From NCBI RefSeq assembly GCF_055900595.2, contig NZ_CM148325.1: a DNA stretch of 64,000 nucleotides; one strand, written 5' to 3'. The position numbers and the translations under genes were made by a program. The notes below the pieces were generated by a model, which was not told the origin of the DNA, searched no databases, and was given only the letters and a program-made list of their open reading frames with translations. This document shows, one piece after another, positions 16,547 through 42,805 of this stretch (its first letter is position 1; the number at the start of each line of letters is the position of its first letter).

Positions 16547-16599
16547 GTAACCGGCTCATTTAAACCGTCTGGTCTGTTTCCTCCGGCTCTACAAAAATA

Positions 16600-17277
16600 A
16601 TGTCCATCATTTTTAATGGACACTATCGTATGAAACACCGGACCTGGATCACTGAAGCTTTACGTCTTCACTTTGAAGAACATTTACCCCGGGTTGTGGC
16701 CGGGCGTCGCCTGGGTGTACCAAAATCAACAGTTTGTAGTATGTTCGTGCGCTTTCGGAGAGCTGGCCTTTCGTGGCCTTTGCCCGCAGGCATGTCGGAG
16801 CAGGAACTTGATGCCTGCCTTTACGGACAATTTTCCACGGTACCAGTCGTACGTCCTGAAAGCACCGTTATATCCGAAGCCCCCGTGGTAAAAAAACGTC
16901 CCCGGCGGCCCAACTTCCCTTATGAGTTTAAAATCGCCTTAGTGGAGCAGTCACTGCAGCCCGGAGCCTGTGTGGCGCAGATCGCCCGGGAAAACGGAAT
17001 CAACGATAACCTGCTCTTCAACTGGCGCCATCAATACCGGAAAGGTGGCCTGCTGCCTTCCGGAAAAAATATGCCGGCACTGCTTCCCGTGACGTTAACG
17101 CCGGAGCCGGATAATAAAATCCCGGCCCCCGCACAGGAACCAGAGCGGATAAATACACCGTCCGACAGTCTGTGTTGTGAGCTGGTTCTGCCGGCCGGAA
17201 CTCTCAGGCTTAAAGGTAAACTGACGCCGGCGTTATTACAGACACTTATCCGCGAAATAAAAGGGAGCAGCCACTGA
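16600..17277 (+). CDS. IS66 accessory protein TnpA (orf1)
   Basis: First ORF of the IS66-type operon; stop overlaps the next start (TGATGA); true start may be an internal Met. Confidence 0.8.
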   Translation: MSIIFNGHYRMKHRTWITEALRLHFEEHLPRVVAGRRLGVPKSTVCSMFVRFRRAGLSWPLPAGMSEQELDACLYGQFSTVPVVRPESTVISEAPVVKKRPRRPNFPYEFKIALVEQSLQPGACVAQIARENGINDNLLFNWRHQYRKGGLLPSGKNMPALLPVTLTPEPDNKIPAPAQEPERINTPSDSLCCELVLPAGTLRLKGKLTPALLQTLIREIKGSSH

Positions 17278-17624
17278 TGATATCTCTCCCTGCAGGTTCG
17301 CGTATCTGGCTGGTTGCAGGTATCACCGATATGCGAAATGGCTTTAACGGCCTGGCATCAAAAGTTCAGAACGTCCTGAAGGATGACCCGTTCTCCGGAC
17401 ACCTGTTCATCTTCCGCGGACGCCGGGGTGACCAGATAAAAGTGTTGTGGGCTGACAGTGACGGACTGTGCCTCTTCACCAAACGCCTGGAGCGGGGCCG
17501 CTTCGTCTGGCCAGTCACCCGTGACGGCAAGGTGCACCTTACTCCGGCTCAGTTATCCATGCTTCTTGAAGGTATCAACTGGAAGCACCCGAAACGAACG
17601 GAACGCGCTGGAATCCGCATATAA
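17277..17624 (+). CDS. IS66 accessory protein TnpB (orf2)
   Basis: 115-aa ORF, typical IS66 Orf2 size and position. Confidence 0.85.
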   Translation: MISLPAGSRIWLVAGITDMRNGFNGLASKVQNVLKDDPFSGHLFIFRGRRGDQIKVLWADSDGLCLFTKRLERGRFVWPVTRDGKVHLTPAQLSMLLEGINWKHPKRTERAGIRI

Positions 17625-17643
17625 CCCGTTGTAAAGTGAGGAT

Positions 17644-19215
17644 ATGGACACCTCACTTGCTCATGAGAACGCCCGCCTGCGGGCACTGTTGCAGACGCAA
17701 CAGGACACCATCCGCCAGATGGCTGAATACAACCGCCTGCTCTCACAGCGGGTGGCGGCTTATGCTTCCGAAATCAACCGGCTGAAGGCGCTGGTTGCGA
17801 AACTGCAACGTATGCAGTTCGGTAAAAGCTCAGAAAAACTTCGTGCAAAAACCGAACGGCAGATACAGGAAGCACAGGAGCGAATCAGCGCACTTCAGGA
17901 AGAAATGGCGGAAACGCTGGGTGAGCAATATGACCCGGTACTGCCATCCGCCCTGCGCCAGTCTTCAGCCCGTAAACCGTTACCGGCCTCACTTCCCCGT
18001 GAAACCCGGGTTATCCGGCCGGAAGAGGAATGCTGTCCTGCCTGTGGTGGTGAACTCAGTTCTCTGGGATGTGATGTGTCAGAGCAACTGGAGCTTATCA
18101 GCAGCGCCTTTAAGGTTATCGAAACACAACGTCCGAAACAGGCCTGTTGCCGGTGCGACCATATCGTGCAGGCACCAGTACCTTCAAAACCCATTGCACG
18201 CAGTTATGCCGGAGCGGGGCTTCTGGCCCATGTTGTCACCGGGAAATATGCAGACCATCTGCCGTTATACCGCCAGTCAGAAATATACCGTCGTCAGGGA
18301 GTGGAGCTGAGCCGTGCCACACTGGGGCGCTGGACAGGTGCTGTTGCTGAACTGCTGGAGCCGCTGTATGACGTCCTGCGCCAGTATGTGCTGATGCCCG
18401 GTAAAGTCCATGCTGATGATATCCCCGTCCCGGTCCAGGAGCCGGGCAGCGGTAAAACCCGGACAGCCCGGCTGTGGGTCTACGTCCGTGATGACCGTAA
18501 CGCCGGTTCACAGATGCCCCCGGCGGTCTGGTTCGCGTACAGTCCGGACCGGAAAGGTATCCATCCACAAAATCACCTGGCCGGTTACAGCGGTGTGCTT
18601 CAGGCCGATGCTTACGGTGGTTACCGGGCGTTATACGAATCCGGCAGAATAACGGAAGCCGCGTGTATGGCTCATGCCCGGAGAAAAATCCACGATGTGC
18701 ATGCAAGAGCGCCCACCTACATCACCACGGAAGCCCTGCAGCGTATCGGTGAACTGTATGCCATCGAGGCAGAGGTCCGGGGCTGTTCAGCAGAACAGCG
18801 TCTGGCGGCAAGAAAAGCCAGAGCCGCGCCACTGATGCAGTCACTGTATGACTGGATACAGCAACAGATGAAAACACTGTCGCGTCACTCAGATACGGCA
18901 AAAGCGTTCGCATACCTGCTGAAACAGTGGGATGCACTGAACGTGTACTGCAGTAATGGCTGGGTGGAAATCGACAACAACATCGCAGAGAACGCCTTAC
19001 GGGGAGTGGCCGTAGGCCGGAAAAACTGGATGTTCGCGGGTTCCGACAGCGGTGGTGAACATGCGGCGGTGTTGTACTCGCTGATCGGCACATGCCGTCT
19101 GAACAATGTGGAGCCAGAAAAGTGGCTGCGTTACGTCATTGAACATATCCAGGACTGGCCGGCAAACCGGGTACGCGATCTGTTGCCCTGGAAAGTTGAT
19201 CTGAGCTCTCAGTAA
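17644..19215 (+). CDS. IS66-family transposase TnpC (orf3)
   Basis: 523-aa ORF; N-terminal leucine-zipper-like region, CxxC...CxxC zinc motif (CCPACGG...CCRCDH), DDE-type core. Confidence 0.9.
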
Positions 19216-29348: not shown

Positions 29349-29608
29349 TATCTCACCTCCAGTCTCCATACCGCCTGACCAATCCGGCTGGCATGGGTAT
29401 CTTTGGATACTGTTCCGTCTTTAGCCATCTCCATAAGAATTTTGCGCAAATCTGCCGAACGCCATTCTTCATCAGGAAATTCCTTCTCCATTGCCAACCG
29501 CAGATTCCAGGTTGCCATCCTGAATGGATATTCCCCGCCGAGAGCTTTATCTTGCAGGGCAGCCCGGGAACGCATCACCTGCAAAACCTTCTCTTTTACA
29601 TTCATCAT
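29348..29608 (-). CDS. hypothetical phage protein
   Basis: 86-aa ORF in a co-directional gene string. Confidence 0.5.
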   Translation of the reverse strand: MMNVKEKVLQVMRSRAALQDKALGGEYPFRMATWNLRLAMEKEFPDEEWRSADLRKILMEMAKDGTVSKDTHASRIGQAVWRLEVR

Positions 29609-39664: not shown

Positions 39665-39913
39665 ATGGCAAGACTTATTCTGCTCACTGAGTGGGCAAAA
39701 GAGGAATTCAGTGAACCGGTCCCTAGTCCGGGTACGTTAAGTAAATACGCTAAAGCCGGAATGATATTTCCTCTCCCCAAAAAAGTAGGAAGGCACTGGC
39801 GAGTGGATCCACGCGCTCGCTTTGTCGGAATGGTAAACAAGCCGGAGGTGATCGCCACAGATCACCCTGCTTTGAAGAGGATACTGGAAGATGGCGCGCC
39901 CGCGAAAATATAA
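39665..39913 (+). CDS. xis: excisionase (Xis)
   Basis: 82-aa ORF overlapping the int start; motif resembles lambda Xis. Confidence 0.75.
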   Translation: MARLILLTEWAKEEFSEPVPSPGTLSKYAKAGMIFPLPKKVGRHWRVDPRARFVGMVNKPEVIATDHPALKRILEDGAPAKI

Positions 39914-41021
39914 AACCGATGTTCCGGGTTTATCTCCGTATTTTGACAAAAGAAATAACAAAGTTTACTGGCGTTACAGGCATCCCATCACAGGTAAAAA
40001 TCATGGACTCGGCAGTATTGACCAGAAACTGGCGGAAACCATTGCAGCAGAAGCGAACAGCCGTCTTGCCAGACAACAAATGGAGCAAATGCTCAGTCTG
40101 CAGGAGAAAATTATTAGTGATACCGGCGGCGCATCAACCGTTTCCATTTTTCTGAATAATTACAGAAAAATTCAACAGGAAAGATATGAGAACGGAGAGA
40201 TCAAACTCAGCACGCTGAAGCAAAAAGCGGCTCCTCTCAGGGTGTTTGATGAACGTTTTGGAGCCAGGCCGCTAGATGCCATAACCGTAAAAGATGTGGT
40301 ATCGGTGCTGGAAGAATACAAGGCAAAGGGACATAACAGAATGGGACAAATTTTCAGGAAGGTATTGATCGATGTTTTCCGGGAGGCTCAACAAACGGGT
40401 GATGTTCCGCCAGGCTTTAACCCGGCTGAATCGGCAAAAAAACCGCAAGTGCGGATATCAAGACAGCGACTGACTTTTGATGAGTGGATGATGATTTATA
40501 ACGCAGCGGAAAAGGATGGTTACTTTTTACAGCGCGGCATGCTGCTGGCACTGATGACGGGCCAGCGTCTTTCGGATATTTGCAAAATGCAGTTTTCGGA
40601 TATCCGGGATGGTTACCTTCATGTCGAACAGCAAAAAACAGGAGCCCGGATAGCCATTCCTCTGGCTCTGCGTTGCGACAAATTAAATCTTACCCTGGGT
40701 GACGTGGTGTCATCCTGTCGTGATTACATCCTTAGTCCGTGGTTATTGCACCATCATCACGCTAAGGGGATGGGTAAGCGCGGCGGGATGGTTAAACCAG
40801 CAACATTAACAGTCGCATTTAAAAAAGCCCGGGATTCTGTGGATTACAACTGGCGTGCTAATGGCACGCCACCCTCTTTCCATGAGCAAAGATCTTTATC
40901 AGAACGATTGTTCAGAGAACAGGGAATTGATACCAAAATTTTGCTGGGCCATTCGAATCAAAAAATGACCGATATTTACAACGACGCACGCGGTAAAGAG
41001 TGGAAAAAACTGGTTATTTGA
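39891..41021 (+). CDS. int: tyrosine integrase (lambda Int family)
   Basis: 376-aa ORF; N-terminal arm-binding-like region; C-terminal catalytic region (...LLGHSNQKMTDIY) ; att junction immediately downstream. Confidence 0.9.
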   Translation: MARPRKYKTDVPGLSPYFDKRNNKVYWRYRHPITGKNHGLGSIDQKLAETIAAEANSRLARQQMEQMLSLQEKIISDTGGASTVSIFLNNYRKIQQERYENGEIKLSTLKQKAAPLRVFDERFGARPLDAITVKDVVSVLEEYKAKGHNRMGQIFRKVLIDVFREAQQTGDVPPGFNPAESAKKPQVRISRQRLTFDEWMMIYNAAEKDGYFLQRGMLLALMTGQRLSDICKMQFSDIRDGYLHVEQQKTGARIAIPLALRCDKLNLTLGDVVSSCRDYILSPWLLHHHHAKGMGKRGGMVKPATLTVAFKKARDSVDYNWRANGTPPSFHEQRSLSERLFREQGIDTKILLGHSNQKMTDIYNDARGKEWKKLVI

Positions 41022-41066
41022 TAACCAGTTTTGCAGAAGAGTTTTGCAGAGGTTTTGCAGAGAAAA
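40995..41066. promoter_or_regulatory. prophage attachment junction next to ompW
   Basis: Perfect palindrome AAACTGGTTAT-TTG-ATAACCAGTTT spanning the int stop; three tandem TTTTGCAGA(A/G)G repeats; ompW stop at 41067. Confidence 0.55.
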
Positions 41067-41705
41067 TTAGAAGCGGTATCCGGCAGAGAACATAAACACC
41101 CACGGATCCAGTCGTACCGCGTCTTTCACGGGGGTTCCATTAAATTTATAGCTGGCGGTGGTGTCGATATCCATGTACCAGACTGACATGTTCACCAACC
41201 AGTCACGGTTAATCAGATAATCAACCCCCACCTGCCCGGCAGCTCCCCAGGAGTCTTTCAGACTGAGATCGGAAAGTCCCGCCTCTTTGCCATGATCGTT
41301 GAATCCATTATCAAAGAAGGTGGTGTAGTTAATACCTGCCCCAACGTAAGGACGGAATTTGCTGCTGGCATCACCAAAATACCACTGCGCCATCAGTGTT
41401 GGCGGCAGATGATGAACGGTTGCAATATCGCCGGTCGCCCGGGTGCCGATTTTATGGCGGAACGGCGTCGCTGCCAGCAATTCCACACCAATGTTATCGG
41501 TCGCCATATAAGTAAACGTCAGGCCCAGTTGCGTGTTATTGGTCACGCTGAATCCACCCAGACTTCCTAACGTACCACCAGCACCTTCTGTTGGACGTAC
41601 GGTTGCAGAACCTGCACGCATAAAAAATTCGCCTGCTTCATGCGCAAAGGCACTGCCAGAGAGAAGAGTTGTTACTGCCAAAGCCGCCACTGTTAACTTT
41701 TTCAT
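41067..41705 (-). CDS. ompW: outer membrane protein W
   Basis: 212-aa product MKKLTVAALAVTTLLSGSAFA...SAGYRF (C-terminal Phe); ORF-track start extended upstream. Confidence 0.95.
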   Translation of the reverse strand: MKKLTVAALAVTTLLSGSAFAHEAGEFFMRAGSATVRPTEGAGGTLGSLGGFSVTNNTQLGLTFTYMATDNIGVELLAATPFRHKIGTRATGDIATVHHLPPTLMAQWYFGDASSKFRPYVGAGINYTTFFDNGFNDHGKEAGLSDLSLKDSWGAAGQVGVDYLINRDWLVNMSVWYMDIDTTASYKFNGTPVKDAVRLDPWVFMFSAGYRF

Positions 41706-42061
41706 ATCCGCTCCGTCGTTATGGTTATAAAAACGTGACGAATATACCCACATTGGAGTAACAAATGATCCTACATAGATCACATTACATATGATAATTC
41801 ACCCTTTATTGATCTGGATTAATTTAGAAGTTGCACTGGAAATCCTGGTTAATGTGATTTAAATCAATTTTTAAATATTTTCGCTACGCAAATATTAACT
41901 CGCTCGCCACTTGCAGCGGTTTGCCCACGCCTGAAGGCCAGCAATTACCTCCGCTTTACAAAGATATGCTTTTCCATACAAGACCTGATGCTGCCACCCG
42001 AGGCTTAACCAGGGTACAATTGCCCGCTAATTAACACCTGCATAAAACTCAAGGAGAGTGC

Positions 42062-42805
42062 ATGTCTATCACGGCGCAGTCCGTATACCGTGACACCGGA
42101 AATTTCTTCCGTAATCAATTTATGACCATTCTGTTGGTATCGTTGCTATGTGCGTTTATCACAGTGGTGTTAGGGCATGTTTTCTCACCCAGTGATGCAC
42201 AGCTTGCACAGCTCAATGACGGCGTGCCCGTTAGCGGCAGTAGTGGGTTGTTCGACCTGGTGCAGAATATGTCACCGGAACAGCAACAAATTTTGCTGCA
42301 GGCTTCAGCGGCGTCCACTTTTTCAGGATTAATCGGTAACGCCATTCTCGCCGGAGGCGTAATATTAATTATCCAGCTGGTGTCTGCGGGTCAGAGAGTC
42401 AGTGCGCTTCGAGCTATTGGTGCCAGTGCGCCGATATTGCCAAAGTTATTTATTCTGATTTTTCTGACTACCCTTTTAGTACAGATTGGCATCATGCTGG
42501 TGGTCGTTCCGGGAATTATCATGGCCATTTTACTGGCTCTGGCACCGGTGATGTTGGTACAGGACAAAATGGGCATTTTTGCCTCGATGCGCAGCAGTAT
42601 GCGGCTGACATGGGCGAATATGCGTCTGGTGGCACCCGCGGTACTGAGCTTGTTGCTGGCAAAAACACTATTGCTACTTTTTGCCTCTTCTTTTGCCGCA
42701 TTAACCCCGGAAATTGGTGCCGTACTGGCGAACACCTTGAGCAATCTGATTTCAGCCGTACTGCTCATCTATCTGTTCCGCCTGTATATGTTGATTCGCC
42801 AATAA
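42062..42805 (+). CDS. yciC: inner membrane protein YciC
   Basis: 247-aa polytopic membrane protein; conserved ompW-yciCBA-tonB synteny. Confidence 0.9.

What the first reader, a model, noticed from the sequence alone, without database searches (positions are those of the whole stretch)
40995..41070. att junction abutting the ompW stop codon, with palindrome and triple TTTTGCAGAG repeat
The int stop is embedded in a perfect 11-bp-arm palindrome (AAACTGGTTAT/ATAACCAGTTT). It is followed by three tandem TTTTGCAGA(A/G)G units and then directly by the ompW stop codon. The prophage is therefore integrated at, or overlapping, the 3' end of ompW, and the repeats may be integrase arm sites or the att core.
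Basis: seen in the sequence. Interest (0 to 1): 0.4.

Follow-up and report, generated by a model that had tools for sequence, protein, structure and literature searches.

The report
Prophage attachment junction inside ompW
This is the integrase-side end of a common, already published lambda-like E. coli prophage that inserts about 100 bp inside the ompW gene and brings its own replacement gene end, so the palindrome and triple repeat are phage attachment-site parts, not the crossover point.

Summary
The sequence features are real. A 12-bp-arm palindrome spans the int stop codon. Three GTTTTGCAG units follow at 13- and 11-bp spacing, and the ompW stop lies 4 nt further on.

The junction is not at the ompW stop. 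Compared with K-12, ompW 41067-41163 is only 69% identical, while everything from 41164 onward is about 98% identical. A closely related lysogen keeps the original 126-bp ompW 3' remnant beside yciE at the far prophage end. A phage record carries the whole arrangement as contiguous attP.

The only block identical in attP, attB and both junctions is TCGATATCCATGTACCACACTG (41164-41185), inside ompW codons 174-181. The phage supplies the last 31 ompW codons.

This is the PPompW prophage family, whose published "121-bp att" corresponds to window 41065-41185. A prophage of this kind sits at ompW in 1714 of 5426 complete E. coli genomes.

The triple repeat is most likely a set of integrase arm-type binding sites:
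- A fourth copy sits at +130 on the other attP arm.
- The same module follows the stop codon of integrases only 49-68% identical that target ushA, icd or ompW.
- e14 has the same layout with a different repeat sequence.

The palindrome is probably the substitute terminator for ompW and int. Overall this is ordinary and already known.

The parts
39665..39913 (+). xis (excisionase, 82 aa), overlapping the start of int
   Evidence: ORF. PHROG 629 excisionase, E 2e-34. Annotated as excisionase in the 99.3%-identical lysogen.
39891..41021 (+). int: lambda-type tyrosine integrase, 376 aa, with an N-terminal arm-DNA-binding domain
   Evidence: Pfam Arm-DNA-bind_1 at residues 2-71 (E 1.6e-21) plus Phage_integrase. 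Lambda Int PDB 5j0n, E 3e-55 over residues 14-375. 50% identical to e14 IntE.
41006..41032 (.). Perfect palindrome (12-bp arms, 3-nt spacer) spanning the int stop codon. Probable hairpin terminator for the rebuilt ompW (U6 tail on the minus strand) and for int (U4 tail on the plus strand).
   Evidence: One compensatory double change, T..A in the window versus C..G in PPompW, is synonymous in int. The hairpin is kept in a 68%-identical ompW-targeting integrase (L031) but is absent in ushA- and icd-targeting relatives, which have their own terminator elsewhere. The consensus terminator scanner did not call it.
41028..41039 (+). Arm-type repeat 1 (GTTTTGCAGAAG), 147 bp from the core centre. Its first bases overlap the right palindrome arm.
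   Evidence: Conserved in all junction variants and in 32 viral contigs.
41041..41052 (+). Arm-type repeat 2 (GTTTTGCAGAGG), 134 bp from the core centre
41052..41063 (+). Arm-type repeat 3 (GTTTTGCAGAGA), 123 bp from the core centre. It ends 4 nt before the ompW stop.
41067..41163 (-). Phage-borne substitute 3' end of ompW: the stop codon, codons 182-212 and the third base of codon 181. It encodes the last surface loop and the last beta-strand.
   Evidence: 30 mismatches in 97 nt against K-12 (69% identity), versus about 98% beyond this point. Present in contiguous attP of phage 204576. Three sequence types exist among lysogens. The reading frame is kept, and residues 185-196 differ from K-12 and PDB OmpW.
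41065..41185 (.). The interval equivalent to the published and GenBank-annotated 121-bp att sequence ('duplication due to insertion of PPompW')
   Evidence: The repeat_region annotated in LC567822.1 (91-211 and 43883-44003) maps base for base onto this interval. The paper states a 121-bp attL/R in ompW (PMC8112680).
41164..41185 (.). Identity block, or common core: TCGATATCCATGTACCACACTG (the window has G at 41181). It lies in ompW codons 174-181 (SVWYMDID), and strand exchange occurred within it.
   Evidence: It is the only block identical in attB (K-12), attP (phage 204576) and both junctions of two lysogens. Phage-type SNPs lie to its left and host-type SNPs to its right on the int side, and the reverse on the far side. 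The megablast match to the attP-bearing phage record ends exactly at 41185. It occurs once in the window.
41067..41705 (-). Chimeric but intact ompW: 212 codons, with host codons 1-181 and phage codons 182-212
   Evidence: identical to E. coli OmpW (PDB 2mhl, 2f1t) at every aligned residue (22-212) except residues 185-196.

Best explanation
The interval is the integrase-proximal arm of the attachment site of a lambda-like, PPompW-type prophage.

**How integration works.** The phage attP is about 300 bp long. In window orientation it reads:
1. the int stop codon inside a hairpin;
2. three tandem GTTTTGCAGRRG repeats;
3. a diverged, in-frame copy of the last 31 codons of ompW;
4. a 22-bp block identical to ompW codons 174-181;
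5. an AT-rich arm with an IHF-like site at +99 and a fourth repeat copy at +130.

Int, a lambda-type tyrosine recombinase with an arm-binding N-domain, acts with Xis. It recombines the 22-bp block with the same block in chromosomal ompW.

**Result of integration.** ompW is rebuilt with a phage-supplied 3' end, which gives a new last surface loop and an unchanged last beta-strand. The original 3' end is left as a remnant beside yciE at the far prophage end, which lies outside this window.

**Roles of the flagged elements.** The three repeats are the counterpart of lambda P'1-P'3 arm-type Int binding sites. The palindrome is the transcription terminator that the phage supplies for the rebuilt ompW, and it also ends int.

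**Status of each step.**
- Shown: the position of the identity block, the phage origin of 41067-41163, and the contiguous attP.
- Inferred from comparison: arm-site function, about 0.8.
- Inferred: terminator function, about 0.65.
For: **Junction position**
- Against K-12, 41067-41163 is 69% identical and 41164-42099 about 98% identical.
- In lysogen ECCNB12-2, whose junction is 99.3% identical to the window, an ompW 3' pseudogene of 126 bp lies next to yciE at the far end.
- In the alignment of both junctions with attB, host and phage SNPs swap sides across TCGATATCCATGTACCACACTG. PPompW_132418 shows the same.
- Phage 204576 holds the contiguous attP, and the match to the window stops at 41185.
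- The published 121-bp att in ompW (PMC8112680; GenBank features) equals window 41065-41185.

**Arm sites**
- Int has the Pfam arm-binding domain and is a lambda Int homologue.
- Repeat positions of -147, -134, -123 and +130 are identical in three diverged attPs. Far-arm conservation ends right after the +130 copy.
- The same triple repeat, with the same spacing, lies 3-21 nt after the stop of a 374-381-codon int ORF in 29 of 32 viral contigs. Outside the near-identical PPompW-like group (96-97%), those integrases are only 49-68% identical to the window Int, and they face ushA, icd or ompW 3' ends.
- Within that integrase set, residues 1-45 are 42% invariant, against 16-24% for the rest of the protein.
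- e14, whose IntE is 50% identical, has three TTTTGATAA repeats at the same 13/11 spacing beside its icd' end.

**Terminator**
- Hairpin energies and z-scores.
- One compensatory double change.
- ushA- and icd-targeting relatives carry a GC-rich hairpin with a U tract between the gene stop and the repeats. ompW-targeting elements have no hairpin there and instead all carry the hairpin at the int stop.
Against: - The far end of this window's own prophage is outside the window, so the far junction comes from a relative. That relative is 99.3% identical at the junction and 95-99% identical in shared structural genes.
- No binding data exist for the repeats.
- Only one clear distal copy was found, where lambda has two P-arm sites. 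The IHF-like match is weak.
- The hairpin stem is AT-rich, with 3-4 G-C pairs out of 12. The consensus terminator scanner did not report it, and its plus-strand U tract is only 4 nt.
- The compensatory change represents a single evolutionary event.
- The exact exchange point within the 22-bp block is unresolved. The window also carries a SNP (G at 41181) inside it.
Confidence: 0.85

Rival explanations
1. One reading: the att junction or core lies at 41029-41066, directly abutting the ompW stop codon, and the TTTTGCAGAG repeats are the att core.
For: Similarity to the K-12 chromosome does begin at 41065, two bases before the stop. That position is also the outer edge of the published 121-bp att.
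Against: - The repeats are absent from attB.
- They are not next to the crossover at the far junction.
- They lie in phage DNA 113-147 bp from the only block shared by attP, attB and both junctions.
- The stretch 41067-41163 is phage-borne, with 69% identity to K-12 and presence in free attP.
Confidence: 0.02
2. The triple repeat binds an accessory factor, such as Xis or another directionality or regulatory protein, rather than the Int N-domain.
For: In lambda, from established knowledge, Xis binds tandem direct repeats within attP. An excisionase is encoded immediately upstream.
Against: - The repeats lie on the int-proximal arm, where lambda has P'1-P'3 rather than the Xis sites (knowledge of lambda attP).
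- An isolated single copy at +130 on the other arm fits Int bridging better than cooperative Xis binding.
- The module tracks the integrase family across different targets, and the arm-binding part of Int is its most conserved segment.
- Xis co-variation was not examined.
Confidence: 0.08
3. The palindrome is not a terminator. It is a protein-binding operator, or an RNase III (sib-like) processing site that controls int mRNA stability.
For: A perfect 12-bp inverted repeat could bind a dimer. Lambda regulates int through a 3' hairpin (sib), from established knowledge. The AT-rich stem was not called by the terminator scan.
Against: - The hairpin lies between int and the arm sites, so it stays linked to int in both phage and prophage. 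Lambda sib depends on being separated from int by integration.
- Its presence correlates with the absence of any other terminator for the rebuilt target gene.
- It has an A tract, a stem and a U tract on both strands.
- In one variant (A27) a changed base still allows a G.U pair in plus-strand RNA.
Confidence: 0.15

Closest known systems
PPompW lambda-like prophages of STEC/EPEC (Nakamura et al. 2021, PLoS Pathog, PMC8112680; GenBank LC567818-LC567841)
   Same: - Same integration locus inside ompW.
- Same int-xis-exonuclease gene order.
- Same palindrome, triple repeat and 22-bp block.
- The published 121-bp att corresponds to window 41065-41185.
- 91.5% nucleotide identity over 800 bp.
   Different: - The window carries a different version (type A) of the phage-borne ompW 3' end, so the OmpW loop reads SYKFNGTPVKDA instead of KYKSGVTTVKDS.
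- The palindrome has a T..A pair where PPompW has C..G.
- The 21-bp secondary attB described inside PPompW genomes is absent from the window.
- In the passages I read, the paper treats the whole 121 bp as 'att' and does not describe arm repeats or the hairpin.
Phage 21 and e14 integration into icd (Hill et al. 1989 and Wang et al. 1997 J Bacteriol, recalled from memory; cited in PMC3603311)
   Same: - Integration inside a protein-coding gene, with the element carrying a diverged replacement 3' end that keeps the ORF.
- attP is enlarged by that gene fragment.
- Related integrase: IntE is 50% identical.
- In K-12 e14 there are three tandem repeats at the same 13/11 spacing next to the substitute gene end.
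- icd-targeting relatives in viral contigs carry the identical GTTTTGCAG triple repeat.
   Different: - The target is ompW, not icd.
- The e14 repeat is TTTTGATAA rather than TTTTGCAGA.
- In e14 a separate GC-rich terminator sits between icd' and the repeats.
- In e14, intE is 3 kb away from the repeats.
Bacteriophage lambda attP (P'1-P'2-P'3 arm-type sites next to int; P1, P2 and IHF sites on the other arm)
   Same: - Int homologue with the same three-domain layout, including the arm-binding domain.
- Three tandem arm-type repeats immediately after the int stop codon.
- A same-orientation copy at the outer edge of the other arm.
- An IHF-like site between the core and that copy.
The lambda layout is recalled from established knowledge.
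   Different: - The repeat sequence is unrelated to the lambda arm consensus.
- The triple repeat is 113-147 bp from the core, against roughly 55-85 bp in lambda, because a 97-bp gene fragment lies in between.
- Only one clear distal copy was found.
- attB is intragenic.
- The 3' hairpin lies on the int side of att, not beyond it as sib and tI do in lambda.

Membership tests
Lambda-type (arm-binding) tyrosine integrase attachment site | Integrase with a catalytic tyrosine-recombinase domain plus an N-terminal arm-DNA-binding domain | tested here: met
   Pfam PF09003 at residues 2-71 (E 1.6e-21) and PF00589 (E 9e-16). Lambda Int structures, E 3e-55.
Lambda-type (arm-binding) tyrosine integrase attachment site | A short block identical in attP, attB, attL and attR within which exchange occurs | tested here: met
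   The 22-bp block TCGATATCCATGTACCACACTG is shared by the K-12 attB, the phage 204576 attP and both junctions of two lysogens. Flanking SNPs swap sides across it.
Lambda-type (arm-binding) tyrosine integrase attachment site | Arm-type repeats, unrelated to the core, on both attP arms | tested here: met
   GTTTTGCAG lies at -147, -134, -123 and +130 in three diverged attPs. The module is conserved after the int stop in 32 viral contigs with different targets.
Lambda-type (arm-binding) tyrosine integrase attachment site | Int N-domain physically binds the arm repeats | not testable with these tools
   This needs EMSA or footprinting. There is only indirect support: Int residues 1-45 are the most conserved segment among integrases sharing the repeat.
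Lambda-type (arm-binding) tyrosine integrase attachment site | IHF bending sites between the core and the arm sites | tested here: inconclusive
   One WATCAANNNNTTR match at +99 is conserved in position in three attPs, perfect in one and with one mismatch in the others. None was found in the ompW' segment.
Lambda-type (arm-binding) tyrosine integrase attachment site | Adjacent excisionase gene | tested here: met
   The ORF at 39665-39913 matches PHROG 629 excisionase, E 2e-34.
Intragenic integration with element-borne replacement 3' end (phage 21 / e14-icd type) | attB lies inside a protein-coding sequence | tested here: met
   The identity block spans ompW codons 174-181 of 212.
Intragenic integration with element-borne replacement 3' end (phage 21 / e14-icd type) | The element carries a diverged copy of the gene's 3' end that restores a full-length ORF | tested here: met
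   41067-41163 is present in free attP. ompW stays at 212 codons in types A and B and 217 in type C. Residues 197-212 are unchanged and 185-196 are replaced.
Intragenic integration with element-borne replacement 3' end (phage 21 / e14-icd type) | The displaced original 3' end remains at the other prophage end | tested here: met
   Seen in related lysogens: ECCNB12-2 at L003 25728-25853 next to yciE, and PPompW_132418. For this window's own genome it lies outside the window.
PPompW prophage family (PMC8112680) | Integrase more than 90% identical to the PPompW integrase, and ompW split by the insertion | tested here: met
   91.5% nucleotide identity over 800 bp, including the last 620 bp of int, to 11 PPompW records. 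Int is 96-97% identical at protein level to viral-contig integrases that carry the PPompW-type junction. The full-length nucleotide comparison with EC112648_1574 was not done.
Intrinsic (Rho-independent) terminator, bidirectional | Stable stem-loop followed by a U tract on the transcribed strand | tested here: inconclusive
   The 12-bp stem folds at about -12 to -15 kcal/mol, with a U6 tail on the ompW strand and U4 on the int strand. The stem is AT-rich and the consensus scanner did not call it. No transcript data exist.

The most novel reading that the evidence does not exclude
Integration is also a form of lysogenic conversion of a surface protein.

- The phage replaces OmpW residues 185-196, which by barrel topology form the last extracellular loop, with one of at least three alternative cassettes.
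- Type A reads SYKFNGTPVKDA, type B reads KYKSGVTTVKDS, and type C has a 5-residue insertion.
- The final beta-strand stays identical in all three.

This could alter recognition of OmpW by colicin S4, by OmpW-dependent phages or by antibodies in roughly a third of E. coli strains.

A smaller new point is that one arm-site module (GTTTTGCAG three times, at 13/11 spacing) is shared by integrases that have diverged to target ompW, ushA and icd.
Probability: 0.2. Interest if true: 0.5.

Novelty: already known. Interest (0 to 1): 0.15.

Why it matters
Mainly as a correction. Anyone mapping this prophage boundary by eye, or by similarity to K-12, would place it at the ompW stop codon. The true recombination site is about 100 bp inside the gene, and the last 31 codons of ompW in lysogens are phage DNA.

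This affects three practical things:
- calling prophage boundaries;
- ompW allele typing, because the 3' end reports the prophage rather than the host lineage;
- any use of OmpW as an antigen or receptor, because its last surface loop differs between lysogens and non-lysogens.

The biology itself is established. It is a lambda-type attP with arm sites, an intragenic attB and a substitute gene end, as already known for phage 21, e14 and the published PPompW family.

Tried and rejected
- **Other prophage end in the window.** K-12 yciEFG DNA and the 22-bp block were sought in the window. Neither yciEFG nor a second copy of the block is present, so a related lysogen was used for the far junction.
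- **Genome-contig scan with Int.** It returned a single locus, E. albertii. This was useless for the co-variation question but gave a side observation.
- **Consensus terminator scan.** It did not report the palindrome. The likely reason is that the maximal 12-bp stem consumes the U tract. This was kept as evidence against the terminator reading.
- **Rfam.** The only match was a chance snoRNA hit far below threshold.
- **Region just downstream of K-12 intE.** It has no repeats. The e14 repeats lie beside icd' instead.
- **Literature on phage 21 arm sites.** The search did not retrieve Wang et al. 1997, so that parallel rests on memory.
- **The 21-bp secondary attB described inside PPompW genomes.** It is not in this window.
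- **The repeats as an ompW 3'UTR RNA element.** Rejected, because in ushA- and icd-targeting relatives the same repeats lie beyond the terminator of the target gene.
- **The origin of the phage-borne ompW fragment.** The donor species was not pursued, because the protein-database search is costly and the question is a side issue.
Full report
**1. The observation**

The window carries xis (39665-39913) and a 376-aa int (39891-41021) on the plus strand, converging on ompW (41067-41705, minus strand).

- The int TGA stop (41019-41021) sits in a perfect palindrome. Its arms are AAAACTGGTTAT and ATAACCAGTTTT, at 41006-41017 and 41021-41032, with a 3-nt spacer. The arms are 12 bp long, not 11.
- Three units follow, starting at 41029, 41042 and 41053. 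The conserved unit is GTTTTGCAG, at 41028, 41041 and 41052, a spacing of 13 and 11 bp.
- Four bases after the third unit comes the complement of the ompW stop (41067-41069).
- GTTTTGCAG occurs 4 times in the window against 0.8 expected, and none of 100 shuffles reached 4.
- The hairpin folds at about -12 kcal/mol on either strand, with z-scores of -3.0 and -5.9.

**2. Where the junction really is**

Prophage-free E. coli such as K-12 match the window only from 41065 rightwards. The identity profile, however, is sharply two-part:
- 41067-41163 has 30 mismatches in 97 nt (69% identity);
- 41164-42099 has 18 mismatches in 936 nt (about 98% identity).

In the lysogen ECCNB12-2 the junction is 99.3% identical to the window, and the shared phage structural genes are 95-99% identical. 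The far end of its prophage holds an annotated ompW pseudogene of 126 bp, missing its N-terminus, directly beside yciE.

I aligned the int-side junction, the far-side junction and the K-12 attB.
- The far side is K-12-like through ...GGTATCGATATCCATGTACCACACTG and then becomes AT-rich phage DNA.
- The int side is phage-type up to ...GGTG and K-12-like after ...CACTG.
- The only block common to all three is TCGATATCCATGTACCACACTG, at window 41164-41185.
- PPompW_132418 gives the same picture.

The record for Escherichia phage 204576 carries the whole arrangement as one contiguous attP: int stop, palindrome, three repeats, the ompW-like segment, the 22-bp block and then the AT-rich arm. Its match to the window stops exactly at 41185.

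So the phage carries its own copy of the ompW 3' end. Exchange happens in ompW codons 174-181, and the last 31 codons of ompW in the window are phage DNA. The other prophage end is not in the window, because no yciE DNA and no second copy of the block are present. Position 1 of the window maps inside the tail gene J of the related prophage.

**3. This is already published**

Eleven GenBank records named 'Enterobacteria phage PPompW_...' match at 91.5%. They annotate a 121-bp 'duplication due to insertion of PPompW', which maps base for base onto window 41065-41185.

Nakamura et al. [quoted passage not shown] They also say the 121-bp sequence found in phages is 81% identical to E. coli ompW.

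Bobay et al. 2013 (PMC3603311) list ompW and icd among the most occupied intragenic integration hotspots. In the complete-genome collection, 1714 of 5426 E. coli genomes have this int next to ompW.

**4. What the triple repeat is**

Int has the lambda arm-DNA-binding domain (PF09003, E 1.6e-21) and aligns with lambda Int over residues 14-375 (E 3e-55). Arm-type sites are therefore expected.

- *Fixed positions in attP.* I compared three attPs whose distal arms average only 74% column identity: the window/ECCNB12 type, phage 204576 and PPompW_132418. The motif sits at identical positions of -147, -134, -123 and +130 from the core centre, always in the same orientation. Distal-arm conservation ends right after the +130 copy. 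An IHF-like site is conserved at +99.
- *The module tracks the integrase family.* A scan of viral contigs for GTTTTGCAG-N4-GTTTTGCAG-N2-GTTTTGCAG found 32 loci. In 29 of them a 374-381-codon int ORF ends 3-21 nt upstream of the repeats.
- *Different targets, same repeats.* Apart from the near-identical PPompW group, these integrases are only 49-68% identical to the window Int. The convergent gene ends they face are ushA (NF007109, E 1e-68), icd (NF005425, E 6e-95), ompW of another species, and an unidentified small ORF.
- *Conservation within Int.* Among these integrases, residues 1-45, the DNA-binding part of the arm domain, are 42% invariant against 16-24% for the rest of the protein.
- *Co-variation in e14.* IntE of e14 is 50% identical. 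Beside its substitute icd end, e14 has three tandem TTTTGATAA repeats with exactly the same 13/11 spacing.

Same place, same number, same spacing and a different sequence with a diverged integrase: this is the pattern expected of arm-type Int sites, the counterpart of lambda P'1-P'3. It is not the pattern of a core. Binding itself was not tested.

**5. What the palindrome is**

- The window has a T..A pair where all PPompW-type sequences have C..G. The left-arm change is a synonymous Val codon in int, so this is a compensatory double change, although a single event.
- A 68%-identical ompW-targeting integrase (L031) keeps a hairpin at the same spot with a slightly different stem and loop.
- ushA- and icd-targeting relatives lack a hairpin at the int stop. 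Instead they have a GC-rich hairpin with a U tract between the target gene's stop and the repeats.
- ompW-targeting elements have only 4 nt between the gene stop and the repeats. Their sole hairpin is the one at the int stop, with a U6 tail on the ompW strand and a U4 tail on the int strand.

The native hairpin in the K-12 yciE-ompW spacer stays with the remnant at the far end. The most economical reading is that the palindrome is the phage-supplied terminator for the rebuilt ompW and also ends int.

Caveats are the AT-rich stem, the lack of a call by the consensus scanner and the absence of transcript data. No Rfam family matches.

**6. Consequence for OmpW**

The chimeric OmpW is full length. 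It is identical to E. coli OmpW (PDB 2mhl, 2f1t) at every aligned residue (22-212) except residues 185-196.

Three phage-borne versions exist among lysogens:

| Version | OmpW loop sequence |
|---|---|
| Type A (window) | SYKFNGTPVKDA |
| Type B (O145/O157 PPompW) | KYKSGVTTVKDS |
| Type C (5 residues longer) | KYKSDGRKLAKGSYSDN |
| K-12 (no prophage) | NYKLGGAQQHDS |

All are followed by the identical last strand VRLDPWVFMFSAGYRF. By outer-membrane barrel topology this stretch is the last extracellular loop. That assignment is an inference, and whether the swap has a phenotype is untested.

**7. Verdict**

The sequence features are real and functional-looking. The interpretation 'att junction at the ompW stop, repeats may be the core' is wrong in position. 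The alternative guess, that the repeats are arm sites, is well supported.

The element belongs to a published, very common prophage family and follows the architecture known from lambda and from phage 21 and e14. Interest is low.

The comparative points I did not find in the papers searched here are two. One GTTTTGCAG arm module is shared among integrases targeting ompW, ushA and icd. The terminator is relocated to the int stop in ompW-targeting elements.

Noticed in passing
L013 2300-3200 (Escherichia albertii NBRC 107761, NZ_BBMY01000048.1): A 97%-identical int, with the same palindrome, triple repeat, type-B ompW' segment and 22-bp block, is joined not to ompW but to rlmC (ybjF) nt 701 to 1. 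This is apparently a secondary-site integration inside rlmC, and it creates an RlmC-N-terminus::OmpW'-C-terminus fusion ORF. Phage sequence runs through ...CCACACTG, and the next bases GGCAG are shared by the phage arm and rlmC. This hints that strand exchange lies at the right edge of the 22-bp block.
   Followed up: partly
window 41118-41152 (ompW codons 185-196): The phage-borne segment replaces what is, by topology, the last surface loop of OmpW. At least three alternative loop cassettes occur among E. coli lysogens, while the final beta-strand is unchanged. This could be lysogenic conversion of a receptor or antigen.
   Followed up: partly
L015-L046 (IMG/VR contigs): The GTTTTGCAG x3 module directly follows the stop codon of diverged integrases (49-68% identical) that sit at the 3' ends of ushA, icd, ompW and one unidentified small gene (L029). 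It looks like a family that keeps its arm recognition while changing target gene.
   Followed up: yes
L012 1290-1400 (E. coli K-12 e14, next to icd): e14 has three tandem TTTTGATAA(C) repeats at 13/11-bp spacing, then a GC-rich terminator hairpin, then the substitute icd 3' end. intE lies about 3 kb away, beyond lit, ymfE and ymfD.
   Followed up: partly
window 16547-19210: An IS66-family element (tnpA, tnpB, tnpC) is inserted among the prophage genes. It is 98.8% identical to an IS66 copy found at a different position in the related ECCNB12-2 prophage.
   Followed up: partly
window 41181 and 41193: The window has G at 41181, inside the 22-bp identity block, and C at 41193. Strain C31 has the same two bases, and its ompW is a more divergent allele. 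The pair may therefore be a host ompW polymorphism, which would place the exchange left of 41181 in this lineage.
   Followed up: no
PMC3603311 (Bobay et al. 2013), section 'Integration Hotspots': [quoted passage not shown] If the second case means ompW, this disagrees with the intact 212- or 217-codon ompW seen in all lysogens examined here.
   Followed up: no
window 29579-29587 (minus strand): A fourth exact GTTTTGCAG copy lies elsewhere in the prophage, far from att. It is probably chance.
   Followed up: no
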